Shown piece by piece: positions 22,630-62,627 of a stretch of DNA of 64,000 nt. Source of the stretch: Thermoplasmata archaeon. GTDB lineage: Archaea > Thermoplasmatota > E2 > JACPAO01 > JAHFTW01. Under the pieces are notes generated by a model. That model saw only the letters and a list, made by a program, of their open reading frames with translations, was not told the origin of the DNA and did not search any database. Each line of letters opens with the position of its first letter. Positions within the stretch are counted from its first letter, which is position 1. Made by a program: the position numbers and the translations under genes. The stretch is taken from assembly GCA_034667725.1 (NCBI GenBank), contig JAXDQS010000001.1, positions 173,593 through 237,592 of the forward strand, given 5' to 3'.

Positions 22630-22758
22630 GCCGCCGAAGCCGGGTACGGGTCCCACCAGACTTGTTCGATGGGGTTATCAAAAGGTGCCGTCATCGAAGG
22701 CCGCCCCGCCCAGAGAGGGACACCCAGGTCCCTCCTGGCAGTACCGAGGCTTCCGCCC

Positions 22759-25700: not shown

Positions 25701-28700
25701 CACCGACACCTCCGACCCGGCCAACCCGCTCATCCCCAACACCGGCGCCCTGCCCCTGGTGTCCTACTCGGGCACCCTGCTGGCCGGCGCCACCGACGGC
25801 CTGCCGGTCGCGACCTTCACGGACCGCGCCGCCACCGACGCCGCCCTGCCGGTCCTGATCACCGTGCGCGGCGGCGCCGGCCGCAACACCGTCGAGCTGC
25901 GGTTCTCGGAGGACGTCGTGGACGCCACCACCAAGGGCCCGCTCAAGGCCTCGAACTTCCTCTACTCGAACGGCAACGGCGGCTCCTCGACCTGCTCCAG
26001 CGGCGCCTCCAACATCGTGGACGTGCTGCCGGTCACCGGCTTCAACGACCGCTTCACCGGTGTGCTCAACACGCCGGCCGGCCAGCCGGGCCTGCACTAC
26101 GACGACATCGTCGGCTGCCCCACCGTCGCCAGCCGCGACGAGGTGCGCGCCCTGGCCTCGAGCATCATCGAGAAGGTCGGCCTGCGCGCCATGACCGACA
26201 GCACCCCGCGCGACATCCAGGACATCTTCGGCCCCGACATCCTGTCGGCCCGCTTCATCGACGCCCCAGCCCAGGCTGGCGCCGTCACGGGCGCGGACGG
26301 CACCATCGACGCCGTCGAGGTCCGGTTCCGCGAGTACGTCTCCGACGCCGCGGCCGCCTTCGGCACCAGTGCCACCGTCACCGGCCAGTGGGCCGTCAAG
26401 GTCAACGACGGCAGCCTCAAGACCCTCAAGGTCAAGGCCGTCGTCTCGAGCCAGAACGGCGTCCTCGGCGACAGTTGCACGGACACCCAGGCCCGCCCCC
26501 TCATCCTCTGGCCGGGCGAGGTCCAGCCGCCCACCAGCGGCCCCTCCAGCGTCAACGGCGTGGACGACGACACCCTGTTCCTCTGCCTGGAGAACACCGT
26601 CGGCGTCTCGACCCAGGGCACCCTGGGCCTCGGCACCGGCATGGTCGGCACCCTCAGCTACGCCGCCGCCAACCCGACGGCCCGCATCAAGGACCGCAGC
26701 GGCAACGGCTTCGCCGACATCACCCTCGGCAGCGCCCGCACCGTCACCGACGGCGCCCGCCCCGTCGTCCTCAACACCTGCCGCCCCGAGGTCACCCCAG
26801 CCCTGCGCTGCACCGGCGTGTCCCCCGAGTCGGCCGACCTCGACAACGACGGCCTCGTCGACGCCCTGCGCGTCGTGCTGTCCGAGCCCGTGAAGGACGA
26901 CACCTACAAGCAGGTCGAGTGGGACCTCGGCTCCGGCTTCGCCATCACCGGCATGGACACCGGCGTCACCGTCGACGACGCCACCATCTTCCTCAAGTTC
27001 AACGAAGGCGCCACGCCGGACACCGGCCGCGGCCGCGCCTCCCAGCCGGGCCTGCCCGACCTGACGTTCAGCTCGACCGGCACGATGGCGGACCGCGCGG
27101 GCAACCGCATCCGCGCCGTCCAGTCGGGCGCGTGCGGCGCCGCCACCGACACCCACTGCGCCGACGAGCGCGACGGCGTCGAGCCCGTGGTCGTGCGCTC
27201 CCAGGCCGAGGTCGGCTCCGACCTCGTCACCATCGCCCTCAGCGAGCCCGTCCAAGGCACCGGCCCGGTCGCCAGCGGCCGCCCCATCACCACCAGCGAC
27301 ATCGCCTACCAGAACAAGGCGGGCGCGGGCGACGGCGCCACCGGCATCGTGGCCATCTCCCATGTCGCGGGCGAGTCGGTCCTCACCATCAAGCTCGACA
27401 AGAAGGTCACCGAGTTCGACCGCCTCAACGACCGCTTCGTCTTCGTGACGGGCAGCATCAAGGAGGCCCAGTGCACGGTGTCGGCCACGACGCCCTCGTG
27501 CTACCGCCAGCTCGCCATGACGCGCCTCTTTGTCCCCATCGCCTTCGCCGGCGGCGCGGACCCCAAGCCGGCCGCCATCGACGACCTGGACGCCCCCGCC
27601 GAGGACGTCACCGCGACCTCGGTCCGCCTGACCTGGACCGCCCCCGACGACACCGACCTCGCGAGCTACCAGATCTACTTCTGCGAGTGCTCGTTCGCCG
27701 GCACCATCCCGACCGGCGCCCTGACGCCCCCGACCTCGGTCGTCATCCCGACCCCGGACCCCGGCGAGGCCCAGGAGGTCGTCATCACCGGCCTCACCAC
27801 CGGCAAGACCTACAACTTCGTCATCCGCGCCATCGACAACTCCGGCAACACCGCCGAGCTGTCGAACGTCGCGACCGCCCTCGTCGAGGCCCCGGACACC
27901 GAGGCGCCCGACATGGTGTTGGCCCTCCAGGACCTCGCCGCCAGCACCCCGCTGGGCTCCGTCGCCCTCGTCTGGGACGCCCCCGGCGACGACGGCGACC
28001 AAGGCACCGTGGCCGGCTACCGCATCGCGGTCGCCGACCGCCCGATCGCGGCCAGCGACTTCGAGGACTTCGAGACGACCGACTACTCGCTCAACCCGGC
28101 CGGCCTTGCGGACGCGGGCGACACCCAGCGCGCCACCATCTTCGGGCTCATCCCCGGCGACGAGGTGTTCGTGTACATCCTCGCGTACGACGACGCCAGC
28201 CCGCCCAACGAGTCGCCCCTCAGCGGCGCCGTCCGCGCCACCGTCGGCGGCACCACCACCGACCTGGCCGACCCCGGCCCCATCACCGACCTCACGGCCA
28301 CCGCCGCCACCGACAGCACGGTGGAGCTGGAGTGGCGCGCGCCCGGCGACGACGGCCTCTCCGGCGGCCCCGTCACCGGCTACGACGTCTACTACAGCAC
28401 CGCGCCGTTCGCGTCCTCGACCCGCCCGTCCGTGCCCCGCGCCTCCGACGTCACGCTGTCGCCCCGCACCCCCACGGCCGCCGGCCTGAGCCAGCGCGCC
28501 ACCGTCGGCGGACTGGAGTCCGACACCGTGTACTACTTCATGGTCCTGGCCCGCGACGACGCGACCAAGACCAGCGCCTCGAACGTGGTCAACCGCGCCA
28601 CCCTCCCCGGCGTCGGCGAGCTGACCATCGACGACCTGTTCGCCGCCAACAAGGAGCTCAACGAGAACCTCGAGGTCACCCACGAGGACGGCATCAACAT

Positions 28701-29388
28701 CGTGAGCTTCACCATCCCCGAGGCCGCCCGCGACGCCGCCAAGGGCCTGCAGGTCTGGCGCGCCGAGGAGTGCGACGACGCCAACTACGTGCTCGTCAAC
28801 ACCTACGACGCCGACGACAGCGTGTTCGAGGACGGCCGCTTCGAGGAGCCCGGCGCCACCACCGACTGCTACAAGGTCACGCTGTTCACCAAGGACAGCC
28901 AGGACTCCGCGCTCGGCCCCAAGGCCAACGCCAGCGACATCGAGCGGTTCGCCGAGCTCGACTCCGCCTCCGCCAGCGACGGCGGCATCGGCACCGGCAT
29001 GTGGCTGATGATCGGCGGCGGCGTTCTCCTGGCCATCCTGCTCGCGGCCCTGCTGGTCTTCCTGGTCCGCCGCCGTGGCGGCGGCCAGCAGACCCTGCCG
29101 CCCGAGGAGACGGCCGAGGGCGGCGAGGCCGGCGAGGGCTGGAGCGAGGTCCCGGAGGAGGGCGCGGCCGAGTCCGTCGCCCCCGCCGCGGACACCTGGT
29201 CCGAGCCCGCGCCCGCCGAGGCCGAGCCCGAGGCGCCGTTGGCCGCGCCGCCCGCCGCCGCGGCGACGACGGCCGCCACGACGCACTACGTGACCTGCCC
29301 GCGCTGCAGCTCGCCGTTCAGCGCCGTCGGCGTCAAGCCGCTCGCCATCCAATGCCCGAGCTGCGGCGTGCGCGGCACGCTGAAATAA
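22759..29388 (+). CDS. Giant type-I membrane surface protein (2209 aa): tandem Ig-like/Big_5-like domains, FN3 domains, TM helix, acidic cytoplasmic tail ending in a Cys4 zinc ribbon
   Basis: Signal peptide MPSTSRARTSFILALLLVAGALPALPVATAAA. Many ~100-aa repeats open with D.[DN].[DN]G.[IL]D[AG] and carry …FSEP[VM].D (e.g. DLDNDGLVDALRVVLSEPVKDD). Three FN3-like modules lie near the C-terminus (…VRLTWTAPDD…, …VELEWRAPGDDG…). TM MWLMIGGGVLLAILLAALLVFLV, then RRRGG + an E-rich linker, then HYVTCPRCSSPFSAVGVKPLAIQCPSCGVRGTLK. Confidence 0.8.
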   Translation: MPSTSRARTSFILALLLVAGALPALPVATAAAPVVTSANLLDEDNNGHLDAVLLTFDQAIRSDSVRPSDWTLGSAVARSVERQSSTQFKLFFQEALALDGNSNAINIAYTREADQPLENLATPFEDFTASTVPASAKKDMAKPILMAAYAVEATNYIVAVFSEAVTDNAGAILTHDEFVLTAGGAGAPAIDTTVAVTALGSPARVFRIPLNAAWTTAQLAHATKPTLAISGTNLVKDLATPANNNPTGMAAVPVGAPFIERVMANPGDDLVVVEFNGPVADSTGTAPLPATSSGDLTLRFQEGSGGGAIVTTDMVNPVFSDRVQLRVDAPLRPADFAAGTISKIVAQTDKVFAWKGASSVASYKVPAGAAGNLADADVYTNPYPTRLETVDRDLNGCIDAIQMTWNDDILDASLAASTGWVVVFPKKASGTPLPTTPPAPGIVGATLVSAITGAGVSPTLSPGVDDRVTFLTFTETDAATGCDLSLPAPLVGSTGPAGVRLLPRVSHCDGLDSGCTGLSPTDRAGRGIGASRGAFNDAGVLFRLPVIDSARPVLMTAATRDLPSSPDGQVDQILLSFSEPMKLGTLKQAQWNVRVPANQAQCPVPASTAYTVTSVGSASGTSGDTESLLLLGIQPSGTPDTGCILDIAYGTTPNALESSNGQVLPAIPANSLILTTATATAGGANSITAAATNFATAGALTGMRVDVSRAGTPLGSFTVTGVAGTTLTFSPAVAAASAPIAAGDVATVYRERDGAGPVLLDGRLVGAVGSRFATATFSEAVLGVNGNAVTNTDLTYKNNGAGGASGISCVATPSYTSGTCTPDPAVTTNPAQLSLTLNAVLAGGDVGTGKDCVQIVNYIPDENSLNPANPGVRDAAGNVGQPLEPSGPCRIFSTGGTVATVLAIETLDTSNPPNGAIDAIRVTFTGPVNDDFTDGVAKWKVKFGTTTATINTVQSGGNCGGSTLTPDVANDAVVFLCIAELTDTSDPANPLIPNTGALPLVSYSGTLLAGATDGLPVATFTDRAATDAALPVLITVRGGAGRNTVELRFSEDVVDATTKGPLKASNFLYSNGNGGSSTCSSGASNIVDVLPVTGFNDRFTGVLNTPAGQPGLHYDDIVGCPTVASRDEVRALASSIIEKVGLRAMTDSTPRDIQDIFGPDILSARFIDAPAQAGAVTGADGTIDAVEVRFREYVSDAAAAFGTSATVTGQWAVKVNDGSLKTLKVKAVVSSQNGVLGDSCTDTQARPLILWPGEVQPPTSGPSSVNGVDDDTLFLCLENTVGVSTQGTLGLGTGMVGTLSYAAANPTARIKDRSGNGFADITLGSARTVTDGARPVVLNTCRPEVTPALRCTGVSPESADLDNDGLVDALRVVLSEPVKDDTYKQVEWDLGSGFAITGMDTGVTVDDATIFLKFNEGATPDTGRGRASQPGLPDLTFSSTGTMADRAGNRIRAVQSGACGAATDTHCADERDGVEPVVVRSQAEVGSDLVTIALSEPVQGTGPVASGRPITTSDIAYQNKAGAGDGATGIVAISHVAGESVLTIKLDKKVTEFDRLNDRFVFVTGSIKEAQCTVSATTPSCYRQLAMTRLFVPIAFAGGADPKPAAIDDLDAPAEDVTATSVRLTWTAPDDTDLASYQIYFCECSFAGTIPTGALTPPTSVVIPTPDPGEAQEVVITGLTTGKTYNFVIRAIDNSGNTAELSNVATALVEAPDTEAPDMVLALQDLAASTPLGSVALVWDAPGDDGDQGTVAGYRIAVADRPIAASDFEDFETTDYSLNPAGLADAGDTQRATIFGLIPGDEVFVYILAYDDASPPNESPLSGAVRATVGGTTTDLADPGPITDLTATAATDSTVELEWRAPGDDGLSGGPVTGYDVYYSTAPFASSTRPSVPRASDVTLSPRTPTAAGLSQRATVGGLESDTVYYFMVLARDDATKTSASNVVNRATLPGVGELTIDDLFAANKELNENLEVTHEDGINIVSFTIPEAARDAAKGLQVWRAEECDDANYVLVNTYDADDSVFEDGRFEEPGATTDCYKVTLFTKDSQDSALGPKANASDIERFAELDSASASDGGIGTGMWLMIGGGVLLAILLAALLVFLVRRRGGGQQTLPPEETAEGGEAGEGWSEVPEEGAAESVAPAADTWSEPAPAEAEPEAPLAAPPAAAATTAATTHYVTCPRCSSPFSAVGVKPLAIQCPSCGVRGTLK

Positions 29389-29398
29389 CCCATCCTGC

Positions 29399-29600
29399 CG
29401 AGCCGGGGGCCGCCGCGCGCGTGAGCGCGCAGGACCGAGCACGCCCGCCTGCGCGAGCATCGCGAGCGCACGGGCCGAGGGCGCGGCCCCCTCGCCGTGG
29501 GGGCGCAGGGGGCGAAGCCCCCGCGCAGGCGGAACGAACCGCAGTTCGTTCCGAGCCGAACCTGTTCCTTGTCGTTTTAAATACTTCCCGGGATGGAGCG
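29399..29600 (+). repeat. Conserved GC-rich intergenic element, copy A (terminator-like hairpin + BRE/TATA), between giant genes 1 and 2
   Basis: ~200 nt aligning with 34291-34500 at roughly 80% identity by eye (CGAGCCGGGGGCCGCC.GCGCGTGAGCGC.CAGGAC…). A 9-bp-stem hairpin GGAACGAAC-cgcag-GTTCGTTCC lies at 29531-29552 and is followed by CCGAGCCGAACCTGTTCCTTGTCGTTTTAAATAC. Confidence 0.7.
29575..29584 (+). promoter_or_regulatory. Archaeal TATA box (TTTTAAATAC) with upstream purine-rich BRE-like CG, promoter of giant gene 2
   Basis: AT-rich TTTTAAATAC in an otherwise ~70% GC context, ~74 nt upstream of ATG 29658. An identical box precedes giant gene 3. Confidence 0.5.
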
Positions 29601-29657
29601 GACCAAGCACCGGACGCCGGACCTTAGGGCCCGGCTTCCGCCCGCAGGTTGATCCCC

Positions 29658-32600
29658 ATGGCCGCCGGTCCCTCCTCTAAACCTCACGCCTTCCGCAGCG
29701 TCGCCGTCTTGACGGCGCTCCTGGTGGCCGTCCTGGCGCCGCTGATTCCGCAGGCTGTCGCCGACGGGACCAGCCTCAGCATCGCGGTCGGTCCCCACTT
29801 CGAGATCGACACCTCGAGCCCGACGTTCCAGGGCTGCCCCGGGTCGGACGCGACCAGCCCGCAGCTGCGCGCGCGCCCCGACGACGCGGTCGTGCAGACG
29901 CGGACGGTCCGCGTCTTCAACGGCGCCGCCGCCACGCAGACGCAGGTGACGTTCCGCTACACGGTGGCGGGCCCCGGCGCGCCGCCGGTGGACCGCTCCC
30001 TGACCTGGGACGAGGAAGGCTCCTCGGCGGCGGGCTGGACCGTGCAGGCCATCAACACCGGCAGCACGGCGGGCTCCTTCCGGGACCTGGTGTTCAACTC
30101 CGGCTCGCTGGTCCCCGGCGCCGCCGACTTCACCATCGCGTTCCGCGTCCCCACCACCGCCGTCGGCGACGCCGGCACCGCCACGCCTGACCTGTACCCC
30201 ATCAACGTGCGCACGGCCGGCGGCGGCGACTTCGAGTCCACCCCGCAGCCGACCAGCTTCTGCATCCGCGTCGACAACAAGGCGCCCAAGCTCACGGACG
30301 CCGTCACCCGCGACACCGACGCCGACGGCCGCATCGACGCCTACGTCCTCACCTTCGACGAGCCCATGGACACGGCGGCCTCCGCCGCGCAGTTCGAGGT
30401 CAAGAGCGTGACCGACCCCAGCCCCTACCAGCCGCTGGGCTTCCGCGCCTCGCACACCTTCCGCCCCGGCGCCGGCACCAACCTGGGCGAGAAGACCGAC
30501 GCGCTGCTGGACCGCCAGGCCGTCCTCAACCTCGCGCCCGGCTACTCCTACGACACCGGCGAGAAGCCGGACGTCACGTACCCGAAGGGCGGCGCCGTCG
30601 GCGTCATCCAGGACCAGGCCGGCAACAAGCTGGGCAAGATCGTCACCTCCGACGTCTCGGAGCGCGACGGCGCCAAGCCGGTGCTGGTGAGCGCCTACGG
30701 CTTCGACGGCGCCACCAACATCATCCTCACCTTCAGCGAGAAGGTCTCGGGCTCGCGCGCCGACAAGAACCTCGCCCTCGCGGACCTGTTCTACGAGGAC
30801 TCGCTGCAGACCAAGAACTGCATCGGCGCCACCGACGGCGTCTCGGCCGAGCTGGGCGAGCCCAAGCCGAGCCCCGCGCCCGCGCCCGCGACCACCTTCA
30901 TCATCCCGGTGCTCACGAGCCGCGCCGGCGCCGGCTGCACCAGCGTCCGCGTCGGCGACGGCGACTCGCACCCGTCCGCCGGCGACCGCATCAAGTTCTT
31001 CGACACTGGAAACTCGTGCGTCGGCCGCGACTTCGACCCGTGCGGCGCGCCCGTGTACGACGTGGCCAGCCTGCACGCCGTCCCCGCCCGCAACGCGCCG
31101 GTCGTCGTGACCGGGCCGTTTGTGAAGGAGGCCGAGGTCAACATCGACTCGTTCCAGTTGACGCTGCGCTTCAACGGCCCTGTCAGCTCGGCCCGCGGCG
31201 AGGACCAGCCCATCCGGCTGGAGGACCTCGACGTGGTGGCGGCCGACGGCACCGGCCAAGGCCCCGGCGGCATCGTCAACGTGCTGCACCGCCCCGGCTC
31301 CGACAAGGCCATCATCACCCTCGACCGCCGCACCCGCCCGACCGACGTGGACGACACGCCGGCGCGCATCAACATCCAGTGCAACGCGATCAAGGGCACC
31401 GGCCTGCCCAGCTTCGTCCCGTGCGGCGACCCGGACAACGACCGCTCGCCCGACGTCAACATGGTGGACCACACCCCGCCCGCCATCGTGGCCGCCGGCA
31501 CCTACGACGGCAACCGCGACGGCTACATCGACGGCGTCAGCCTGCTGTTCAACGAGCCGGTCGACGACGCCACCTTCTGCATCCAGAAGAACGTCGGCGT
31601 CCAGCCGCGCACCATCGCGCACGACTTCGGCGCCACCCCGGACAACATCTGCAACAACCTGGACATCCTGGAGATCGCGTCCATCCCTGGCCCCTACACC
31701 TTCGACACCGACAAGGTCCAGAACGACGCGCAGGGCATCATCAAGTTCCCGCAGCGCGCCCCGCCGACCTTCAAGCCGGACACCAGCGAATACCTGCCCT
31801 ACTCGATCAAGACCACCGGCGACGGCCTGTTCGCCGACCTGGCCCACCCCGAGCCGCCGACGCCCGGCGTCGAGCCGTGGCAGACCGCGAACCTGATGCT
31901 GCGCATCTCGAAGGACCCGGTCACCTGCCCCGACCCGAACATCCCGTGCGCCACCACGCTCACGGTCGCCGACTGGGCCCCGCCCGTCGTGCTGTCCGCC
32001 CAGACCGTGGACACCAAGCCCGCCGTCAAGCCCTCGGACATCGGCGCCCTCGGCTCCGACCCCGTGCCCGACCTCGAAGGCGACGGCTTCCTCGACGGCT
32101 ACCGCGTCACCTTCTCGGAGCGCATCGACGACACCTCGTTCAACGCCGCCGAGTGGCAGGTCGCGGGCTACAAGGTCACCGGGATGCGCACCTACGAGCC
32201 GCACGTCACCAAGAAGGCCGACCAGAAGGCCCTCAGCAACGACACGGTCATCACCATCCAGTTCGAGCCCAGCAAGGTGGCCGACACCGACGCGCGCCCC
32301 GAGCTGCACTACCTCGGCTCGACCCAGGCCCGCGCCGGCCTCGACGACCTCGTCGGCAACCGCCTGCTGCCCTTCGGCTCCATCGGCGTCAACGAGGCGG
32401 ACGACGCCGGACCCGTCATCGTCGGCATCGCCGCCATCGCGGGCCGCGCCGACGTGACGCTGCTGTTCAGCGAGCCCGTCGACGACGGCAGCCACGGCGC
32501 CTTGTCGCGCCGCGCCCTCCAGTACGGCAACGTCAACGCCAACAAGGTCGCCGAGAGCGCCGCCTCCGGCATGGCCGACCAGGACGCCGTGGTGCACAAG

Positions 32601-34196
32601 CCGGCCACGCGCTCGGTCGTGATCACCCTCAATGCCCCGCTGAGCACCGGCGACATCAACGACGACACCATCGCGGCCCAGCCGAACTCGGTGTTCGAGA
32701 CCTCGCCGACGGTGCAGGCCAAGAAGGTCGCGTCCTACAAGCCGCACGGCATGGACTTCGCCCGCGACGGCGTGCCCCCGGGCAACGTCACCGCCTCGGT
32801 CGTCGCCCCGCTCATCACCGCCAACTCGGTGACGCTGCAGTGGACCGCGCCCGGCAACGACGGCACCTCGACCCTGCCGGCCCCCGCCCGCGACGGCAAG
32901 ACCTACGCCAACGTCACCGGCTACCTCGTCAAGGTGTCCTCCGAGCCCATCACGCCGGAGAACTTCCTGTCGCCGGCCGCCCCGGGCACCATCGCCTTCG
33001 GCTACTCCGACGCCGCCGCCAAGCCGTTCACCGACGGCTCGCGCAACGAGATGGAGCTGGACGACCTGGTCGCCGTGTTCAACCCGGACCTCGGCGCGCT
33101 CGCCGGCCCCGGTGTCATGCAGCAGGTGACGGTGCGCGGCCTGAAGTCCAACACGCTGTACTACTTCGCCGTGGCCGCGTTCGACGACTCCGCCCCCGAG
33201 CCCCAGCTTGGCGGCATCGGCACCGGCACGGTCAGCGCCACCACGGCCGTCGACCCGACGCCGCCCATCGGCACCCCGGTCATCACCTCGAGCACGCACC
33301 GCCCCGACGTCACCCGCCCCAGCAACAGCAAGACCGCGATTTTCGACTGGACGCCGGCGCGCGACGACGAGTCGCTGGTCACCTACCACACCGCGGTCAA
33401 CCACGACCCCGGCTACGTCGCCACCGCGACCGACGAGATGACCACCCGCCTCAGCAAGGAGGTCGTCGTGTCCACCGAGGGCGTCTGGACCTTCCACGTC
33501 GCCGCGTGCAGCGGCGGCGGCTGCGGCGCCACCGGCCACTACAACTTCGGCGTCGGCTACTCGCCGCTCGACAAGCAGGAGATCCGGGTCGCCAACCAGT
33601 ACGTCAACTTCACGGCCGTCCGCGACGACAAGGCGAAGTCCACCACCATCACGTGGGAGCTGCCGCCCGAGGAGTTCCTGCCGTCGCGCGCCAACCTGGA
33701 GGCCGTCGTGGTGTACCGCCTCGACTGCGAGCCCAGCGCCGGCTGCAAGCCCACCGAGGTCCAGCGCGTCAACGGCGACTACACCAACCTCAAGACCGGC
33801 TCGGTCACGGACACCTCCGACAAGGCGACGCTGGCGTCGGCCTACCGCGTCGACATGGTGTTCGCCTCCGGCCAGGAGCAGGCCGAATCCCTCAGCGGCT
33901 TCTCCAAGGTCCGCGACGTCACCCCGGCCGAGTCCAACCTGATGTGGATCCTCATCGCCATCGGCGCCGTCGTGCTCCTGGCCATCGTGGGCTTCGTCGT
34001 GTACGCCATGCGCCGCAAGGGCCCCGGCGCCGCCGAGGCCTGGACCGAGGACCAGCCGGCCGGCACCGACCCGACCAGCGGCCTGCCGGCGCACGACGTC
34101 CGCTGCCCGAGCTGCCAGACGGCGTTCCAGGCGGTGGGCACGCTGCCGTTGCAGATCACCTGCCCCAACTGCGGCGTCGGTGGCCTGCTCCAGTAA
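29658..34196 (+). CDS. Giant type-I membrane surface protein paralog 2 (1512 aa) with identical C-terminal TM + zinc-ribbon architecture
   Basis: Signal peptide MAAGPSSKPHAFRSVAVLTALLVAVLAPLIPQAVA. Repeats carry DTDADGRIDAYVLTFDEPM, DGNRDGYIDGVSLLFNEPVDD and LEGDGFLDGYRVTFSERIDD. FN3-like region (…VTLQWTAPGNDG…). TM WILIAIGAVVLLAIVGFVVYAM, then a tail …TSGLPAHDVRCPSCQTAFQAVGTLPLQITCPNCGVGGLLQ. Alternative TTG start at 29649. Confidence 0.8.
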   Translation: MAAGPSSKPHAFRSVAVLTALLVAVLAPLIPQAVADGTSLSIAVGPHFEIDTSSPTFQGCPGSDATSPQLRARPDDAVVQTRTVRVFNGAAATQTQVTFRYTVAGPGAPPVDRSLTWDEEGSSAAGWTVQAINTGSTAGSFRDLVFNSGSLVPGAADFTIAFRVPTTAVGDAGTATPDLYPINVRTAGGGDFESTPQPTSFCIRVDNKAPKLTDAVTRDTDADGRIDAYVLTFDEPMDTAASAAQFEVKSVTDPSPYQPLGFRASHTFRPGAGTNLGEKTDALLDRQAVLNLAPGYSYDTGEKPDVTYPKGGAVGVIQDQAGNKLGKIVTSDVSERDGAKPVLVSAYGFDGATNIILTFSEKVSGSRADKNLALADLFYEDSLQTKNCIGATDGVSAELGEPKPSPAPAPATTFIIPVLTSRAGAGCTSVRVGDGDSHPSAGDRIKFFDTGNSCVGRDFDPCGAPVYDVASLHAVPARNAPVVVTGPFVKEAEVNIDSFQLTLRFNGPVSSARGEDQPIRLEDLDVVAADGTGQGPGGIVNVLHRPGSDKAIITLDRRTRPTDVDDTPARINIQCNAIKGTGLPSFVPCGDPDNDRSPDVNMVDHTPPAIVAAGTYDGNRDGYIDGVSLLFNEPVDDATFCIQKNVGVQPRTIAHDFGATPDNICNNLDILEIASIPGPYTFDTDKVQNDAQGIIKFPQRAPPTFKPDTSEYLPYSIKTTGDGLFADLAHPEPPTPGVEPWQTANLMLRISKDPVTCPDPNIPCATTLTVADWAPPVVLSAQTVDTKPAVKPSDIGALGSDPVPDLEGDGFLDGYRVTFSERIDDTSFNAAEWQVAGYKVTGMRTYEPHVTKKADQKALSNDTVITIQFEPSKVADTDARPELHYLGSTQARAGLDDLVGNRLLPFGSIGVNEADDAGPVIVGIAAIAGRADVTLLFSEPVDDGSHGALSRRALQYGNVNANKVAESAASGMADQDAVVHKPATRSVVITLNAPLSTGDINDDTIAAQPNSVFETSPTVQAKKVASYKPHGMDFARDGVPPGNVTASVVAPLITANSVTLQWTAPGNDGTSTLPAPARDGKTYANVTGYLVKVSSEPITPENFLSPAAPGTIAFGYSDAAAKPFTDGSRNEMELDDLVAVFNPDLGALAGPGVMQQVTVRGLKSNTLYYFAVAAFDDSAPEPQLGGIGTGTVSATTAVDPTPPIGTPVITSSTHRPDVTRPSNSKTAIFDWTPARDDESLVTYHTAVNHDPGYVATATDEMTTRLSKEVVVSTEGVWTFHVAACSGGGCGATGHYNFGVGYSPLDKQEIRVANQYVNFTAVRDDKAKSTTITWELPPEEFLPSRANLEAVVVYRLDCEPSAGCKPTEVQRVNGDYTNLKTGSVTDTSDKATLASAYRVDMVFASGQEQAESLSGFSKVRDVTPAESNLMWILIAIGAVVLLAIVGFVVYAMRRKGPGAAEAWTEDQPAGTDPTSGLPAHDVRCPSCQTAFQAVGTLPLQITCPNCGVGGLLQ

Positions 34197-34290
34197 AGCC
34201 GAGACGGCCCTTTTTCCTTTCCTTCTCCCTGTTTTCGTCCCCACTGGACACAGATTCCACAGATTCGCTGGAAGCTGGCGGGTCGAGCGT

Positions 34291-34500
34291 CGAGCCGGGG
34301 GCCGCCGTGCGCGTGAGCGCACAGGACGAGCGGGCCGGCCCGTGCGAGCGAAGCGAGCGCGCCGGCGCGAGGAGCGGCCCCCAAGCCGGGGGGTCGCAGG
34401 GGCGCAGCCCCCGTTCCCAACAGGCGGGACGAACCGCGCAGCGTGTTCGTCCCGAGCCGAATCTGTTCCTTGGCGTTTTAAATACCCCCAGGATTGGATG
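34291..34500 (+). repeat. Conserved GC-rich intergenic element, copy B, between giant genes 2 and 3
   Basis: Same element as copy A. The hairpin GGGACGAAC-cgcgcagcgt-GTTCGTCCC at 34426-34453 shows compensatory A:T→G:C changes on both stem arms relative to copy A. It is followed by CCGAGCCGAATCTGTTCCTTGGCGTTTTAAATAC. Confidence 0.7.
34476..34485 (+). promoter_or_regulatory. Archaeal TATA box (TTTTAAATAC), promoter of giant gene 3
   Basis: Identical TATA sequence to the giant-2 promoter, ~36 nt upstream of ATG 34521. The conserved flanks are GTTCCTTG[G/T]CGTTTTAAATAC. Confidence 0.5.
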
Positions 34501-34520
34501 CCTTACCCCGCTGGTGGCGT

Positions 34521-37500
34521 ATGGTCAACCGAAAATCCGCGTCCCTCCCCTACGTGCTGGCTTTCCTGATGGTGTTCTCCATCTCGCAAGCCATCGTGCC
34601 CGAGGCGGAGGCAGGCGTCGCCCCCGCTGGCCTCATGAGCGTCTCCGTCGAGCCCAGCTTCACGACCAACGTCATCATGGTCAAGCAGGGCATCAGCGCC
34701 GAGCGCCTGGTGCGGGTGTCGCAGGGCGACCCGCTCAACCCGATGACGACCATCGAGTTCGTCTGGTTCATGCGCGACGACACTTCGACGCCGGCCTGCC
34801 GCGGCCCGCCGCGCGACCTGTGCGCCACGGCCGTCAAGTTCGACTGGATCAAGGAGACCAGCTACGCCATGCGCCCCGGCTGGAAGGTCGAGGCCGCCAC
34901 CTCCACGGCCGCCAAGATCCTCCGCTTCGTCTCCGACGGCACCCAGGAGCTGCGCTCGGGCACGCCGCAGGACTTCAACGTCGCCTTCAGCCAGCGCGGC
35001 GCCGCCCAGGACGACGAGTACCACATCCAGGTCCGCGGCTACTGCGGCGCCGAGTGCCAGCCCGGGGTCGCCTTCGAGACCACCTGCGCCAGCACCCGCG
35101 CCCCCGAGTTCACCTGCATCCACACCAACCCGCCCTTCACCGGCGCCGCCCCGATCCCCGCGGCGGACTGCAACGCGCCCTGCGGCCAGCTGCCGAGCCT
35201 GGTGCTGCGCATCGACAGCGTGCCCCCGGACCCGCCGGCGGTCATCATGCAGGACATCGACCACAACGGCCACATCGACCGCTTCGTGGCGGACTTCCCC
35301 AAGAAGCTCGACGCCAAGTCGTTCGACGCCCGCCTGTTCACCCTCACCGCCCGCGGCCGCCTGTTCGGCTCCAGCCTCACGGACGCCGGCTACACCATCC
35401 AGAACGCCTACTTCGTCAACCCGGACAACCCGGTGCGCGTGGTCTTCCTGGTCAACGAGATGCCGTACTACGACACCGGCGACCAGGTCAACCTGCGCTA
35501 CGCCGGCACCAGCCTGCGCGACGAGGCCGGCAACCCGCTGCGCGGCATCAACGTCCAGGCCACCGACCGCGCCCCGCCGGTCATCGTCGCCGCCTACGGC
35601 CTCCAGGGCTACGACGGCGTCCACGTGACCTTCAGCGAGCCGGTCGTCGGCACCGGCAACGCCCAGGACCCCGCCACCGGCGTCGGCCTGCAGGACCTGC
35701 TGTTCTTCGACGACGGCGGCAGCGCCCCCGACAGCAAGGTCGGCTGCCCCGCCGCGAGCCCGTGCGTCCTGAGCATCGCCGACTCCCGCTTCGGCGCCAT
35801 CACGCACCAGCCCGGCCCCCGCACCGGCCACCAGGCCACCATCAAGACCTCGATCAACCCGGTCACGAGCACGCCCTACACCTTCGGCCCCAACGACGTG
35901 CACCCGCTCAAGGGCGACATGCTCGGCGTCGCCTCCAGCGGCGCCGCCTGCGCCCCCGGCGAGGACCCGCCCTGCGACTCGAAGATCAAGGACGCGGCCG
36001 GCCTCAAGATGTGGCACCCGCTCACGGCCCCCGCGTCCGTCCGGCACATCACCCGCCCCCTCCTGGTGCGCGCCGAGGTCGACATCGGCTCCGACGCCCT
36101 CAAGCTCTGGTTCAACGGCCCCGTGCGCGCCGCCAAGGAGCCCGGCGTCACGACGCCCCAGCCGATCTCGGTGTCCAACATGGACATCGTGACGGCGGCC
36201 GGCACCGGCGTCGGCCCCCAGGGCCTCATCGGCGACTACTTCCGCGCCGTCGACCAGGACTTCATCGTCGTCAAGCTCGACGCCAAGGCCCGCCCCACCG
36301 ACGTCGACGCGACCCCGACCTCGATCCGCCCGCACTGCAAGAAGATCGTCGGCAGCGGCCTCCCCGAGACCAACGACCAGGCGTTCCTGCCGTGCGACAA
36401 CCCGGACCTGTTCTACGAGCAGGAAGCCCGCGTCAAGGGCACCGGCACCTTGGACGCCAAGGGCCGCGACCACGACCTGCCGTCGCCCGGCGCCGCCTTC
36501 GTGGACGACACGCCGCCGCGCATCGTCCAGGTCCGCACCGTGGACACCGACCACAACGGCTGGCTCGACGGCCTCGAGCTCACCATGAGCGAGCCCGTGG
36601 ACGACGTCACGTTCTGCTCGAACGCCAACACCGCCCCCAACTTCTGCCCCGACTCCTGGACCCCGGTCGGCGGCATCTCCCAGGTCGGCCTCGTGATGAT
36701 GCAGAACCTGCGCGCCACCGACGACCGCTCGCAGGAGTGCCTCGGCCTCTACCGCTGGGAGACCGGCCTGGTGGTCAACGACAACGTCGGCATCATCAAG
36801 GCCATCAACGTCGAGCGCAGCCCCACCGGCGAGTACATCGTGACCAGCCGCGACTGCGTCGAGCGCTACTTCAACCAGGACACCGGCATCCGCATGGACA
36901 CCGGCCACCTGCCGACCTTCACCACCACGGCGCGCGGCCTGTTCGCCGACCTGTCGGTGCCGGAGAACCGGATGCCGCAGTACTGCCAGCTGCAGCGCCT
37001 CACCCACTTCCACCACCCGGACGCCGCCACCACCAAGGACTGCGGCCTCCTGGCCAGCACCAAGGCGCAGTACACCGCCCCCGTCTCCGACGGCGCCCCG
37101 CCGGTCGTCATGGCCGCCCGCACCGTGGACACGCCCGCCGTCAACAAGGACGGCATCCCGGACAAGCCCGCCGTGAACCTCTGGGGCGACGGCCGCATCG
37201 ACGGCTACCGCCTCACCATGAGCGAGTCCGTCAAGGACTCCACCTTCGACCGCCGCGACTGGCTGGTGCAGCGCCTCGGCGCCGCGCAGGCCCCGATCCA
37301 CGAGGTCAACGGCTTCCGCAGCTACGACCTCAACGAGACCCTGGGCGCGCTGCGCTCCAACGACCGCGAGCTCACGGTGCTGTTCAACCCGGACACGGTG
37401 CCCGACACGGACGCCCGCCCCGAGCTGACCTACCGCCGCGACCCCGACAGCAAGGGCCTCGCGGACATCGTCGGCAACGTCATGGTGGACTTCGACGAGT

Positions 37501-39284
37501 TCGCCGTGGTCGAGCAGGACGACTCCCGCCCCGTCATCGTGGGCATCGAAGGCTACGTCGGCGAGCGTGTCCTGACCCTCCACTTCAGCGAGCCCGTGGA
37601 CGACGGCGCCCAAGGCAAGCTGGTGTCGGAGGACTTCTTCTACCACAACAACGACGCGACCACGAACCCCGGCGGTGTTGCCGGCAAGGCGGTGTCCAAC
37701 CCGGAGACGGGACAGGCGGTCAACGTCATCCACGTCCCCGACGTCGACTGCACCGGCAACCTCGAAGAGGACGCCGACGGCTGCAACGAGAAGGCCATCA
37801 TCCCGCTCGACCGCGCCCTCACCAACTCCGACCTGACCACCGACCGCATCAACGCGGAGAAGGACACCATCTACGAGAAGGCCCCCACCGTGGTGCCGGT
37901 GCAGCGCAAGGCGGTGCCGAACTTCCAGCAGAAGCTGTCGGTCGGCGCCGACGTGACGCCCCCGGCCAAGGTCACGGACCTGCGCGTGCAGACCGACGCC
38001 GTGCTCGCCAACTCGGTGCTGCTGGCCTGGACCGCGCCCGCGGACGACAGCCTGGCCGGCGGCGCCGTGACGAGCTACGTCTTCAAGGTGTCCACCAGCG
38101 CCATCGACCCCGCCGGCTTCGACGCCTTGGTCAACCCGAACGGCATCACGCCCGAGTTCGAGCCCGCCGCCATGGCGGCGGTCAACCAGACGCAGACCCT
38201 GCGCCTCGTCGGCTTGAACCCGACCACCCAGTACCACTTCGCCATCCGCGCCGTGGACGAGGCGGGCAACGCCGGCGGCGTCTCCAACGCCGTCACGGCG
38301 CTCACCTCGCGCGACGCCACGGCGCCCGTCGGCACCCTCACGGTCTCGAGCACCAGCCACAAGGCCGGCGAGACGGCCCCCAAGGTGCAGGGCATCTTCT
38401 CGTGGAACAAGCTGGAGGACCCCGAGTCCACCGTCGTGTACCGCTACGCCCTGACCGGCAGCCCCGCCTACCAGGTGCTGGCCGCCGACAAGTCCGTGAC
38501 CGGCACCAGCGTCACCGTCGACATCCCCTCCGAAGGCGACTGGACGTTCCACGTCGCGGCCTTCAGCGGCGGCGGCTCGACCCCGACGGCGCACTTCTCG
38601 TTCGGCCGCGGCTCCCCCGTGCTGGCGGCGGACGCCATCGCCGCCGCCAACGACCGCCTCAAGGACAACGTCGAGATCGTCCGCAAGCCCGTCGAGATCC
38701 AGGACGGCGTCGAGGTCGACCTCAACACCATCACCTGGACCCTGCCGCCCGAGTCGGACCTGCCCGGCACCCTCGAGGCCATCGAGATCTGGCGCCTCGA
38801 CGCCGGCATCCCGACCCTGGTCACGACCCAGCCCGGCAGCTACAGCGAGCTCAAGAGCGGCAACTTCACGGACGTCACCCAAGGCGCGGACGAGAACTCG
38901 CTCTACCGCGTCAACATGGTGTTCGCGCAGGACCAGCGCCAAGCCGACCCAAGCGTCTCCGGCCAGTTCAAGGCCCTCCAGAACCAGACGCCCGGCGAAA
39001 TCCCCGCCTGGGTCTACGTCCTGGCAGGCATCGCGCTGGCGTTGATCATCGCGGGCATCATCATCTACTTCGTGCTGCGCGGCCGCCAGAAGGCCGCCGC
39101 GGCCGGAGGGGTGGCGTACTCGTGGGAGTCGGCCGACCCGGAGGCCCTCGGCATCGACGAGGCCACCGGCCTGCCGGTCCACGAGGTCAAGTGCCCGTCG
39201 TGCAACAACCCGTTCCAGGCGGTGGGCGTCCTGCCCCTGCCGGTGACGTGCCCGACGTGCCAGACGACGGGCATGCTGGAGTAA
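34521..39284 (+). CDS. Giant type-I membrane surface protein paralog 3 (1587 aa) with identical C-terminal TM + zinc-ribbon architecture
   Basis: Signal/anchor MVNRKSASLPYVLAFLMVFSISQAIVPEAEA. Repeats carry DIDHNGHIDRFVADFPKKLD, DTDHNGWLDGLELTMSEPVDD and WGDGRIDGYRLTMSESVKD. FN3-like region (…VLLAWTAPADDS…). TM VYVLAGIALALIIAGIIIYFVL, then a tail …ATGLPVHEVKCPSCNNPFQAVGVLPLPVTCPTCQTTGMLE. Confidence 0.8.
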   Translation: MVNRKSASLPYVLAFLMVFSISQAIVPEAEAGVAPAGLMSVSVEPSFTTNVIMVKQGISAERLVRVSQGDPLNPMTTIEFVWFMRDDTSTPACRGPPRDLCATAVKFDWIKETSYAMRPGWKVEAATSTAAKILRFVSDGTQELRSGTPQDFNVAFSQRGAAQDDEYHIQVRGYCGAECQPGVAFETTCASTRAPEFTCIHTNPPFTGAAPIPAADCNAPCGQLPSLVLRIDSVPPDPPAVIMQDIDHNGHIDRFVADFPKKLDAKSFDARLFTLTARGRLFGSSLTDAGYTIQNAYFVNPDNPVRVVFLVNEMPYYDTGDQVNLRYAGTSLRDEAGNPLRGINVQATDRAPPVIVAAYGLQGYDGVHVTFSEPVVGTGNAQDPATGVGLQDLLFFDDGGSAPDSKVGCPAASPCVLSIADSRFGAITHQPGPRTGHQATIKTSINPVTSTPYTFGPNDVHPLKGDMLGVASSGAACAPGEDPPCDSKIKDAAGLKMWHPLTAPASVRHITRPLLVRAEVDIGSDALKLWFNGPVRAAKEPGVTTPQPISVSNMDIVTAAGTGVGPQGLIGDYFRAVDQDFIVVKLDAKARPTDVDATPTSIRPHCKKIVGSGLPETNDQAFLPCDNPDLFYEQEARVKGTGTLDAKGRDHDLPSPGAAFVDDTPPRIVQVRTVDTDHNGWLDGLELTMSEPVDDVTFCSNANTAPNFCPDSWTPVGGISQVGLVMMQNLRATDDRSQECLGLYRWETGLVVNDNVGIIKAINVERSPTGEYIVTSRDCVERYFNQDTGIRMDTGHLPTFTTTARGLFADLSVPENRMPQYCQLQRLTHFHHPDAATTKDCGLLASTKAQYTAPVSDGAPPVVMAARTVDTPAVNKDGIPDKPAVNLWGDGRIDGYRLTMSESVKDSTFDRRDWLVQRLGAAQAPIHEVNGFRSYDLNETLGALRSNDRELTVLFNPDTVPDTDARPELTYRRDPDSKGLADIVGNVMVDFDEFAVVEQDDSRPVIVGIEGYVGERVLTLHFSEPVDDGAQGKLVSEDFFYHNNDATTNPGGVAGKAVSNPETGQAVNVIHVPDVDCTGNLEEDADGCNEKAIIPLDRALTNSDLTTDRINAEKDTIYEKAPTVVPVQRKAVPNFQQKLSVGADVTPPAKVTDLRVQTDAVLANSVLLAWTAPADDSLAGGAVTSYVFKVSTSAIDPAGFDALVNPNGITPEFEPAAMAAVNQTQTLRLVGLNPTTQYHFAIRAVDEAGNAGGVSNAVTALTSRDATAPVGTLTVSSTSHKAGETAPKVQGIFSWNKLEDPESTVVYRYALTGSPAYQVLAADKSVTGTSVTVDIPSEGDWTFHVAAFSGGGSTPTAHFSFGRGSPVLAADAIAAANDRLKDNVEIVRKPVEIQDGVEVDLNTITWTLPPESDLPGTLEAIEIWRLDAGIPTLVTTQPGSYSELKSGNFTDVTQGADENSLYRVNMVFAQDQRQADPSVSGQFKALQNQTPGEIPAWVYVLAGIALALIIAGIIIYFVLRGRQKAAAAGGVAYSWESADPEALGIDEATGLPVHEVKCPSCNNPFQAVGVLPLPVTCPTCQTTGMLE

Positions 39285-39289
39285 CGCGG

Positions 39290-39450
39290 ACAACCGCCTG
39301 GGGCGTTTGTCCGCCCTCCAGCGGGGGCTTTGCCCCCGCACCCCCACGGCAAGGGGGCCGCGCCCTCGGCCCGTGCGCTCGCTGGCGCTCGCGCAGGCGG
39401 GCGCCCTCGGTCCTGCGCGCTCACGCGCGCGGCGGCCCCCGGCCCGGCGT
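39290..39450 (-). repeat. Inverted (reverse-complement) copy C of the GC-rich element, immediately 3' of giant gene 3
   Basis: GGCGGGCGCCCTCGGTCCTGCGCGCTCACGCGCGCGGCGGCCCCCGGC is the reverse complement of the 5' part of copies A/B. The 5' portion (GGGGCGTTTGTCCGCC…GGGGGCTTTGCCCCCGC…) is the reverse complement of the GGCGAAGCCCCC…GGCGGAACGAAC region. It lacks the TATA segment. Confidence 0.6.
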
Positions 39451-39483
39451 GTCGGCTAAATGCGTGAAACCTGTGGAGTCCCT

Positions 39484-62236: not shown

Positions 62237-62476
62237 TCAGAGGAGCTCGCGGCAGCCGCGGCCGGCCTCGCAGCGGGTCACGGTGACCCCGTCGCCATCC
62301 GCGCAGGCGATGGTCGCCGTGCCACGGCCCTGGCCATGGTAGACGCAGACGGACTCCTCGCCCGCGTCGATGCCGGTGCAGGCGTCCTGGGCGACGCAGT
62401 GGCCGACCCACTCCCCGGACGCGGGGACGGCGAAGGCGGTCAAGGCGAGCAAGGCGATGGCAGCAAGGACGCGCAT
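62237..62476 (-). CDS. Small secreted Cys-rich protein (hypothetical), in frame with the read-through tfb ORF
   Basis: [21 protein letters not shown] signal peptide and eight Cys in 58 mature residues. As sequenced it is in the same frame as the tfb extension, but it has its own ATG 62476 and signal peptide. Confidence 0.3.
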
Positions 62477-62627
62477 CGGGGTGGCATGGCGGGCGCCGCG
62501 CTTAGGGGTTTGCCAGCCTTTCGGCCAGCCCCCTGAGCCTCGCTGATGCTCGCTCAGGGTCCGGCGTCGCCTTCGGCGTGCCTGCTCGCAGAGCGCGGCC
62601 TGTCGGACCTCGCCTCCTCGCTGCGGC

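What the first reader, a model, noticed from the sequence alone, without database searches (positions are those of the whole stretch)
29399..39450. Conserved ~200-nt GC-rich intergenic element with covarying hairpin and identical TATA box; third copy is inverted
The spacers giant1/giant2 and giant2/giant3 share a long conserved block. It ends in a 9-bp hairpin (GGAACGAAC…GTTCGTTCC versus GGGACGAAC…GTTCGTCCC, where compensatory changes on both arms preserve pairing), a T-rich tract, and the identical BRE/TATA GTTCCTTG.CGTTTTAAATAC. Covariation argues that the hairpin is selected as a structure (terminator or mRNA-end stabiliser) rather than merely inherited with the duplication. A third copy of the GC-rich part lies immediately 3' of giant 3 in reverse-complement orientation and without the TATA part. 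This gives an inverted-repeat pair bracketing giant gene 3 (and, with copy A, giants 2+3). That arrangement could be a substrate for inversion or recombination, a bidirectional terminator, or a structured 3'UTR/ncRNA family specific to this locus.
Basis: seen in the sequence. Interest (0 to 1): 0.7.

Follow-up and report, generated by a model that had tools for sequence, protein, structure and literature searches.

The report
Structured GC-rich repeat flanking giant genes
Three copies of a 130-base, very GC-rich, hairpin-forming repeat sit just after three neighbouring giant surface-protein genes of an uncultured archaeon; the repeat is real and new to the databases searched here, but it looks like an ordinary kind of intergenic repeat, probably an RNA-end or insulator structure.

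Summary

(1) GC-rich element. It is about 130 nt and 85% GC, with three copies:
- A, 29397-29530 (+)
- B, 34291-34420 (+)
- C, 39315-39448 (-)

A and C are 91-92% identical; B is 78% identical to either. Each copy lies after the stop codon of one of three tandem giant membrane-anchored genes of a Thermoplasmata MAG. Each abuts an 8-10 bp hairpin.

The three main helices (28 bp) carry no disruptive change. All 7 stem substitutions in B keep pairing, 3 of them as double changes. All 12 A/C differences fall outside these stems.

The element is absent from all three orthologous spacers of the closest relative (75-81% protein identity) and from more distant relatives. Those carry unrelated hairpins at the same places.

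(2) Promoter. The motif GTWCG-N8-CGAAY..GTTCCTTG..TTTTAAATAC precedes giant genes in six other related assemblies.

I found no match in Rfam, GTDB genomes, JGI metagenomes, IMG/VR, plasmids or protein space.

Best reading: a lineage-specific structured intergenic repeat acting as a 3'-end RNA structure or insulator. The main rival is selfish mobile DNA. I saw no evidence for inversion. Genome-wide copy number could not be tested.

The parts
22759..29388 (+). Giant gene 1 (2209 aa). It has fn3 domains, a C-terminal TM helix and a CxxC..CxxC tail.
   Evidence: JGI gene call and Logan contig; Pfam; C-terminus
29397..29530 (+). Element copy A. It starts 8 nt after the g1 stop. Helices: P1 29405-29414/29481-29491; P2 GNRA hairpin 29415-29430; P3 29443-29458/29462-29475 with tandem G.A; terminal hairpin GGGGGC-GAA-GCCCCC 29508-29522.
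29530..29553 (+). 10-bp hairpin CGGAACGAAC-cgca-GTTCGTTCCG
   Evidence: z -3.2
29544..29610 (+). Promoter module of g2: GTTCG-N8-CGAAC palindrome, GTTCCTTG, TATA GTTTTAAATAC (29574-29584), and a conserved start of the transcribed region.
29658..34196 (+). Giant gene 2 (1512 aa)
34208..34242 (+). Pyrimidine/T-rich tract (CCCTTTTTCCTTTCC..TGTTTTCG) right after the g2 stop. It looks like an archaeal oligo-T terminator and is conserved in relatives. It is not part of the repeat.
   Evidence: T-stretch terminators in PMC7237163
34249..34266 (+). CACAGATTC x2 motif, shared with relatives' spacers. It is not part of the repeat.
34291..34420 (+). Element copy B, the diverged copy. It carries all the compensatory changes.
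34425..34454 (+). 10-bp hairpin CGGGACGAAC-N10-GTTCGTCCCG
   Evidence: z -4.0
34445..34510 (+). Promoter module of g3: GTTCG-N8-CGAAT, GTTCCTTG, TATA 34475-34485, then CCAGGATTGGA.
34521..39284 (+). Giant gene 3 (1587 aa)
39286..39314 (.). Hairpin GCGGACAA..TTGTCCGC, 1 nt after the g3 stop. It is the inverted counterpart of the A and B hairpins. The only 2 differences between the two assemblies fall in its loop.
   Evidence: (z -3.5)
39315..39448 (-). Element copy C, reverse-complement orientation. It ends 5 nt before the rimK TATA-like box.
   Evidence: (I6, I8)
39453..39461 (+). TATA-like box GGCTAAATG of rimK. The likely leaderless start is GTG 39484. It is conserved in relatives that lack the element.
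   Evidence: inference from spacing and from Rimk_N starting at residue 10

Best explanation
The GC-rich part is a lineage-specific, structured intergenic repeat of about 130 nt. Its fold is a three-way junction: an 11-bp closing helix, a GNRA hairpin and a hairpin with tandem G.A. Two small hairpins and an adjoining 8-10 bp hairpin follow.

The repeat has been installed in the 3' flank of each of three tandem giant surface-protein genes. There it replaces the unrelated hairpins that relatives carry at the same positions.

It is most likely transcribed as the 3' end of the giant-gene mRNAs and acts through its stable fold. It would stop or slow read-through into the next, very strong promoter (or into rimK). 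It would also block 3'-to-5' decay. This job depends on structure, not on sequence or orientation, which would explain why the third copy works inverted.

The hairpin/TATA part is a separate and much older promoter module with a palindromic operator-like site.

Shown:
- the repeat, its fold-preserving substitution pattern and its absence from relatives;
- the conserved promoter;
- positional hairpin analogues in relatives.

Inferred:
- that it is transcribed;
- that it terminates or stabilises transcripts;
- how it spread.
For: Position
- A begins 8 nt after the g1 stop, with no T tract in between. The C hairpin begins 1 nt after the g3 stop. B follows the g2 stop after a T-rich tract.

Positional analogues
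- In three other lineages the last giant gene is followed at once by a long hairpin of unrelated sequence, with z -3.0, -4.2 and -5.1.

Structure is what is conserved
- 28 bp in helices P1-P3 carry no disruptive change.
- 7 of the 29 A-B differences lie in stem columns and all keep pairing: 3 double changes and 1 G.U.
- 0 of 200,000 random placements leave every pair intact.
- All 12 A-C differences fall outside the 56 stem columns.
- Loops differ between copies: AUC/GAA/GCCA and GAA/GCA/AAA.
- 1-nt indels between copies rule out coding.

Not ancestral
- The element is absent from spacers A, B and C of the closest relative. Gene order, promoters, T tract and CAGATT motifs all align there.
- It is absent from the more distant relatives as well.

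Precedent
- In the GC-rich archaeon Haloferax volcanii, hairpins lie upstream of 503 mapped 3' ends. One of them terminated 59% of transcripts in vivo (PMC7237163).
Against: - There are no transcript data, so transcription through the element and 3' ends at it are inferred.
- Whole-element folding energy is not exceptional for 85% GC sequence (z -0.4 to -2.0).
- No T stretch follows the element directly. The T stretch is the efficient archaeal termination signal (95% against 59% for a hairpin).
- In spacer B a T-rich terminator-like tract already precedes the element, so a further terminator there looks redundant.
- Compensated changes in palindromes can arise by template switching without selection. 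The only two differences between assemblies lie in hairpin C, and one of them perfects the stem.
- The structure was derived from the same three sequences on which it was tested.
- A-B divergence at unpaired columns (22 of 74) is of the same order as synonymous-site divergence from the closest relative (20-25%). This fits copies drawn from diverged master copies elsewhere at least as well as local copying.
Confidence: 0.4

Rival explanations
1. Selfish non-autonomous mobile DNA, of MITE, REP/REPIN or IS200/IS605-derived type. The hairpins would be the single-strand DNA signals that a transposase encoded elsewhere recognises. Any effect on the flanking genes would be incidental.
For: - Presence/absence differs against the closest relative at three sites.
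- Copies occur in both orientations.
- Two subtypes exist: A/C at 91% and B at 78%. Their divergence at free positions is no smaller than the species-level synonymous divergence, as expected for insertions from diverged master copies.
- The Logan contig of g2 stops exactly 30 nt (k-1) into copy B, although that 30-mer is unique in the window. This is the same element coordinate where the g1 contig stops in A because of the A/C repeat. It hints at another B-like copy with a different flank.
Against: - There are no terminal inverted repeats at the ends of the conserved unit and no consistent target-site duplication (direct reading).
- The window holds no transposase or recombinase.
- No further copy occurs in 74 kb of this genome.
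- All three copies sit in consecutive spacers. Three random hits among about 55 intergenic regions would rarely do this, about 0.002 by my rough estimate.
- No match was found in the GTDB representatives, JGI metagenome contigs, IMG/VR or plasmids, or in predicted proteins overlapping such a repeat.
- The spacers are not clean insertions; the element replaces other sequence.
Confidence: 0.3
2. A DNA-level element upstream of promoters, such as an insulator, a cruciform or a chromatin-positioning block. All three copies lie directly upstream of a promoter: g2, g3 and rimK.
For: - A and B end about 30-45 nt upstream of the TATA boxes. C ends 5 nt from the rimK TATA-like box.
- Orientation independence fits a DNA-level role.
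Against: - Relatives drive the same promoters, with the same conserved module, without the element.
- In a compact genome every intergenic element is upstream of something.
- GNRA and tandem G.A motifs are typical of RNA (established knowledge, not tested here).
Confidence: 0.1
3. RNA-RNA cross-talk or a small RNA. Copy C in the g3 3' UTR is antisense to copies A and B in the g1 and g2 3' UTRs, so the paralogous mRNAs could pair. Alternatively, the copies are independent sRNA genes.
For: - A and C are 92% complementary over 129 nt on co-directional transcripts.
- The GUGA loop is kept in all copies in the element's own orientation.
Against: - No promoter-like box lies upstream of any copy in its own orientation.
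- No Rfam family matches.
- Strong internal folding competes with pairing between molecules.
- Relatives manage without the element.
Confidence: 0.06
4. An inverted-repeat substrate for programmed inversion or recombination of giant genes 2 and 3.
For: Inverted copies 9.8 kb apart are 91-92% identical, which is compatible with gene conversion between them.
Against: - The window holds no recombinase.
- Gene order and orientation are the same in all relatives and in both assemblies.
- Both promoters lie inside the segment, so inversion would switch nothing.
Confidence: 0.04

Closest known systems
Bacterial small structured intergenic repeats and MITEs (ERIC/IRU, Correia/NEMIS, BOX, RUP, SPRITE)
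   Same: - About 100-200 nt and intergenic.
- Found in either orientation.
- Co-transcribed with neighbouring genes and folding into stable stem-loops.
- Variable presence between close relatives.
- Sometimes clustered.
- Can act as terminator-like or RNA-processing signals (review PMC10969869).
   Different: - This one is in an archaeon.
- It is 85% GC, not AT-rich.
- It has no TIRs at the ends of the unit and no TSD.
- Only three copies were seen, all in one gene array.
- No parent IS is known.
REP / BIME / REPIN elements with RAYT transposases
   Same: - GC-rich palindromic repeats placed 3' of genes.
- Occur as inverted pairs.
- Proposed roles in termination and mRNA stabilisation (PMC3733652 abstract).
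   Different: - REP units are 20-40 bp with a GTAG or CGTC tag and occur in high copy number.
- This is a 130-nt multi-helix unit without that tag.
- No RAYT was seen.
Hairpin-associated transcript 3' ends in Haloferax volcanii, and archaeal oligo-T terminators
   Same: - The host is a GC-rich archaeon.
- The hairpin lies just upstream of 3' ends and terminates transcripts in vivo.
- A T stretch acts as the main signal (PMC7237163). The T/pyrimidine tract after g2 fits the latter.
   Different: - Those hairpins are single and not a repeated family.
- This element is a three-way junction plus extra hairpins.
- It has no adjoining T stretch.
IS200/IS605-derived palindrome-associated elements (PATE), recalled from memory for haloarchaea and cyanobacteria
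   Same: - No TIR and no TSD.
- Defined by subterminal hairpins.
- Occur in archaea.
   Different: - No TnpA or TnpB is nearby.
- No conserved target tetranucleotide was identified.
- Membership was not tested beyond this.

Membership tests
MITE | Length under 500 bp and non-coding | tested here: met
   The element is about 130 nt, or about 160 nt with the hairpin. 1-nt indels between copies break every reading frame.
MITE | Terminal inverted repeats (about 4-30 bp) at the ends of the unit | tested here: not met
   The 11-bp inverted pair GGGGGCCGCCG/CGGCGGCCCCC is internal. Conservation continues about 8 nt to its left and about 40-60 nt to its right.
MITE | Flanking direct repeats (target-site duplication) | tested here: not met
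   CGAGCCG occurs on both sides in A and B but not in C. The right-hand copy is part of the promoter module, which relatives have without the element.
MITE | Multicopy and dispersed, with a related IS able to mobilise it | not testable with these tools
   Only 74 kb of the genome could be read, and it holds 3 copies in one array. The window holds no transposase.
REP / REPIN | 20-40 bp palindromic unit with a GTAG or CGTC tag at one end | tested here: not met
   The unit is 130 nt with several helices. No GTAG or CGTC tag is visible at the helix ends (direct reading; definition from PMC3733652).
REP / REPIN | High copy number and a single-copy RAYT gene in the genome | not testable with these tools
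Bacterial-type intrinsic terminator | GC-rich hairpin followed immediately by a U tract | tested here: not met
   About 20 nt separate the 10-bp hairpin from the only T run, T4 inside the TATA box. No T run follows the GC-rich element.
Archaeal oligo-T terminator | A run of about 5 or more T downstream of the stop codon | tested here: not met
   The element itself has none. A T5-containing pyrimidine tract exists only in spacer B, upstream of the element (34208-34242).
Any Rfam RNA family | Score at or above the family's gathering threshold | tested here: not met
   The only gathering-level hit in the window is a tRNA. The best sub-threshold hits on A, B and C score 20 bits or less against thresholds of 35-100, and they differ between copies.
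Archaeal BRE/TATA promoter (the hairpin/TATA part) | TATA box about 25 nt upstream of the start site, in an archaeon with TBP/TFB, and conserved in front of orthologous genes | tested here: met
   - A TFB gene is present in the window.
- TTTTAAATA lies 36-74 nt upstream of the ATG codons.
- The module is invariant across 11 sequences from seven assemblies.
- The start site itself was not mapped.

The most novel reading that the evidence does not exclude
The element is a dedicated 3'-UTR RNA module of the giant surface-protein genes, and its inverted third copy is functional. The g3 3' UTR (antisense copy) would pair over about 130 nt with the g1 and g2 3' UTRs (sense copies). This would couple the stability or expression of the paralogous mRNAs, as a cross-regulation circuit for alternative surface proteins in an archaeon.
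Probability: 0.06. Interest if true: 0.6.

Novelty: new member of a known kind. Interest (0 to 1): 0.35.

Why it matters
Small structured intergenic repeats are well described in bacteria. They are only sparsely described in archaea, and I am not aware of any in Thermoplasmata; my one literature search that included that term listed none.

This case has a clear fold-preserving substitution pattern and a clean presence/absence contrast with a close relative. That makes it a usable test of whether GC-rich archaea use hairpin clusters in place of T stretches at the ends of very long, probably highly expressed genes.

The by-product may be more useful. A roughly 45-nt promoter with a palindromic site (GTWCG-N8-CGAAY) is conserved in front of giant surface-protein genes across several Thermoplasmatota MAGs. 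It is a ready-made candidate for a strong promoter and operator in a group with no genetic system.

If the element turns out to be only a dispersed selfish repeat, the finding is routine.

Tried and rejected
Searches for further copies
- Exact-pattern scan of the GTDB representative genomes with the 30-nt core: no hit. The source MAG is evidently not in that collection.
- Scan of JGI metagenome contigs with a degenerate 25-nt core: 32 hits. All lie in coding or unrelated sequence with no similarity beyond the pattern. The source contig is not in that collection either.
- IMG/VR scan and blastn against plasmids: nothing.
- Six-frame translation of copy A searched as a concatenated protein against 5.8 billion proteins: no hit at E <= 10.
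- The best-GC3 frame searched by phmmer against 1.84 billion representatives: one spurious repetitive protein.
- Covariance-model search of every locus fetched: only the three known copies. A 13.5-bit match in the SRR19019143 relative (L046 11028-11103) is not significant. Its resemblance to the 3' part of the element (GGGGGCGCGCAGCGCCCCC) is weak.

Identity of the element
- Rfam in sensitive mode on all three copies: only noise.
- Whole-element folding energy against shuffles is uninformative at 85% GC.
- TSD/TIR reading: rejected (see the membership rows).
- K-turn/L7Ae site: the tandem G.A in P3 lacks the 3-nt bulge, so I rejected it by inspection.
- H/ACA sRNA: no conserved ACA box.
- G-quadruplex: only two adjacent G runs.

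Access limits
- The look-ups of TFB and of a GTG-start rimK found nothing.
Full report
**Context**

The window is 72% GC and archaeal. It encodes a TFB, a separate GMP-synthase subunit and a THEP1-type NTPase. Identical proteins are filed at NCBI under "Thermoplasmata archaeon", tags QOD77_171 and QOD77_172, and on JGI contig Ga0467041_0000031.

The finding lies in an array of three co-directional giant genes:
- g1, 22759-29388
- g2, 29658-34196
- g3, 34521-39284

They have weak fn3 signatures. In g1, a TM helix is followed by an acidic linker and a CxxC..CxxC tail; g2 and g3 end in the same CxxC..CxxC tail. The array is followed by rimK.

- Three-way alignment shows a shared GC-rich block.
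- Its 30-nt core occurs only at 29405 (+), 34297 (+) and 39411 (-), even with three mismatches allowed. Shuffles give none.
- A covariance model built from the three copies scores them at 111-117 bits. Nothing else in 174.6 kb scores above 18 bits. That total covers the window, 10 kb upstream of it and all relatives' loci.
- A and C(rc) are 91% identical, or 92% over 129 nt by blastn. B is 78% identical to either.
- The TATA part GTTCCTTGNCGTTTTAAATAC occurs exactly twice. These are the most AT-rich boxes in the window.
- The hairpin next to it is 10 bp, with one compensated pair. Its z-scores are -3.2 and -4.0.
- Copy C also has a hairpin, at 39286-39314, starting 1 nt after the g3 stop.
- The JGI contig agrees with the window over 24.5 kb, including B and C, except for two bases.
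- Logan contigs from SRR24887408 match the window exactly and reproduce the 5' 34 nt and the 3' half of A and the 5' part of B.

**Relatives split the block into two parts of different age**

Homologues of g2 and g3 led to syntenic loci in other assemblies:
- a close relative, SRR34092480, with 75-81% protein identity (L043, L034);
- two distant ones: SRR19019143 (L046, L035) and GCA_040384205.1 (L044), which has three giants in tandem.

A promoter-pattern scan added two MAGs, L040 and L042.

The promoter module is conserved. In 11 aligned sequences from seven assemblies the following are invariant or nearly so:
- GT(T/A)CG-N8-CGAA(C/T)
- GTTCCTTG
- TTTTAAATAC
- a short motif just downstream

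The proteins, by contrast, are only 34-40% identical in the distant relatives.

The W and R1 promoters pair by position: the SA type with SA, and the SB type with SB. They are therefore orthologous and were not recently copied. The variable inner 8 nt suggest a dimeric protein-binding site; this is inference. An upstream CGAAC that pairs with it recurs in some relatives with loops of 4 to about 30 nt. So a hairpin based on GTTCG is a recurrent feature, not a universal one.

The GC-rich element is not conserved. In the closest relative all three orthologous spacers lack it. The stop-proximal T tract, the CAGATT repeats, the hairpin, the promoter and the rimK TATA all align there. All-against-all blastn of 13 spacers finds only promoter matches between lineages. 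The W spacers are 39, 58 and 95 nt longer than their R1 counterparts, and the central parts are simply different. This is replacement, not clean insertion. Because relatives already have the three separate giants, the element did not ride along with the gene triplication.

**The fold is protected**

RNAalifold gives the following:
- an 11-bp closing helix (GGGGGCCGCCG / CGGCGGCCCCC);
- a 6-bp hairpin with a GUGA loop;
- a 12-bp hairpin containing tandem G.A;
- two small hairpins.

Across helices P1-P3 (28 bp, 56 columns):
- B differs from A at 7 stem columns. These are three double changes (C-G to U-A, C-G to G-C, U-A to C-G) and one G.U. None breaks a pair.
- With 29 substitutions placed at random, 0 of 200,000 trials left all pairs intact.
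- The 12 A/C differences all avoid these columns.
- Loops differ in every copy.
- The shuffle control is weaker, 13 of 500, with only three sequences.

Caveats:
- The structure was inferred from the same sequences.
- Total folding energy is unremarkable for 85% GC.
- Palindromes can gain compensated changes by template switching. The only two differences between the assemblies in 24.5 kb sit in the loop of hairpin C, and one turns a mismatch into a pair. That makes a perfect 13-bp stem.

**What it most likely does**

Every lineage places a strong hairpin of unrelated sequence directly after the last giant gene (z -3.0 to -5.1). In this lineage that place is taken by hairpin C plus the inverted element. 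Copy A starts 8 nt after the g1 stop with no T tract. A function that needs stable structure, but neither sequence nor orientation, fits a transcript 3'-end structure. Such a structure would act as a barrier to read-through into the next strong promoter and to exonucleolytic decay.

In Haloferax volcanii, hairpins precede hundreds of mapped 3' ends, and one terminated 59% of transcripts in vivo, against 95% for a T stretch (PMC7237163). I put this explanation at 0.4. It remains inferred, because no transcript data exist.

**The main rival: a selfish mobile repeat (0.3)**

For it:
- presence/absence against the relative;
- both orientations;
- two subtypes whose free-site divergence (22 of 74 columns) is not smaller than the W-R1 third-codon divergence (20-25%);
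- the g2 Logan contig ending exactly k-1 = 30 nt into copy B. That 30-mer is unique in the window, and this is the same element coordinate at which the g1 contig stops because of the A/C repeat. It hints at a further B-like copy elsewhere.

Against it:
- no TIR or TSD;
- no transposase in the window;
- no other copy in 74 kb;
- all three copies in consecutive spacers;
- no hit in any public collection searched.

The two explanations are not exclusive, as bacterial REP and ERIC elements show.

**Other rivals**

- Inversion substrate: no recombinase, constant synteny, and both promoters inside the segment.
- Bidirectional terminator: C lies between co-directional genes.
- sRNA gene: no promoter, and no Rfam match.

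**Comparison with known elements, and limits**

In behaviour the element resembles the bacterial intergenic structured repeats (ERIC, Correia, BOX/RUP/SPRITE, REP/BIME). It fails the sequence-level definitions of MITE (TIR, TSD) and of REP (20-40 bp unit, GTAG/CGTC tag). I therefore file it as a new member of the general kind "small structured intergenic repeat". I do not assign it to any named family.

The key open item is genome-wide copy number. The source MAG is in neither DNA collection, and the look-up tool cannot walk beyond the window.

Noticed in passing
window 29544-29610 and 34445-34510; L034 130-200; L043 250-330; L044 9890-9960 and 15415-15480; L046 5285-5350; L035 60-125; L040 5184-5283 (-); L042 1430-1490; L036 1-45: A roughly 45-nt promoter module precedes giant surface-protein genes in seven Thermoplasmatota assemblies: GTWCG-N8-CGAAY-C-TGTTCCTTG-NN-GTTTTAAATAC, plus a conserved start of the transcript. 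One of the assemblies is a MAG labelled Halobacteriales. The module is far better conserved than the proteins. The palindrome looks like an operator for an unknown regulator.
   Followed up: partly
window 39294 and 39301: The only two differences between the window and the JGI contig over 24.5 kb lie in the loop of the hairpin after g3. The JGI version (A and C at these positions) makes a perfect 13-bp stem, GCGGACAAACGCC/GGCGTTTGTCCGC. This may be a quasi-palindrome mutation hot spot or a strain polymorphism.
   Followed up: partly
L048 end (window 34323) and L049 end (window 29431): Independent Logan contigs stop exactly 30 nt into copies B and A. For A this is explained by the A/C repeat at k=31. 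For B that 30-mer is unique in the window. So there may be another B-like copy elsewhere in that sample, or the stop may reflect a coverage drop.
   Followed up: no
window 34249-34266; L034 11-40; L035 6262-6320; L044 about 15355-15400: A repeated motif, (C)GCAGATT(C), and its complement ATCTGC recur in the spacers of several lineages. In L035 they form an inverted pair that makes a long hairpin. The function is unknown.
   Followed up: partly
window 34208-34242; L043 4915-4960; L044 9670-9695 and 15205-15245: A pyrimidine/T-rich tract directly follows the stop codon in several spacers of this gene family (after g2 in the window and in the closest relative, and after two giants in L044). It is the likely oligo-T terminator. 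In this window it is missing after g1, where element A takes its place.
   Followed up: partly
window 28990-29388, 34100-34196, 39190-39284: All three giant proteins end in a CxxC..CxxC zinc-ribbon-like tail. In g1, where I read the translation, a TM helix and an acidic linker precede it, which would put the tail on the cytoplasmic side. This is an unusual cytoplasmic module for huge extracellular proteins. It is conserved in relatives.
   Followed up: no
window 39453-39484: rimK is probably leaderless, starting at GTG 39484 about 25 nt after a TATA-like box (GGCTAAATG), and not at the ATG at 39460 that JGI called. The box and the spacing are conserved in L034 and L035.
   Followed up: partly
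window 22630-22759: The true start of g1 is ATG 22759, not 22669. Upstream lies a diverged copy of the family promoter: GTACG-N8-CAGAC-TTGTTCGATG-GG-GTTATCAAAAG.
   Followed up: no
window 54018-54885: A tandem repeat of five 144-nt units (86-88% identity) lies inside a minus-strand TPR/DUF4062 protein gene (53784-55724).
   Followed up: no
window 16892-17354, 21994-22456, 44095-44504: Repeats of 108-nt period encoding thrombospondin type-3 (TSP3) calcium-binding repeats occur in three secreted-protein genes. One gene is on the opposite strand, which produces long inverted-repeat hits.
   Followed up: no
window 62237-63892 (-): The TFB homologue ORF is 551 aa, much longer than typical archaeal TFBs. 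The zinc ribbon starts at residue 83. The start codon may be wrong, since this exact product is not on record.
   Followed up: no
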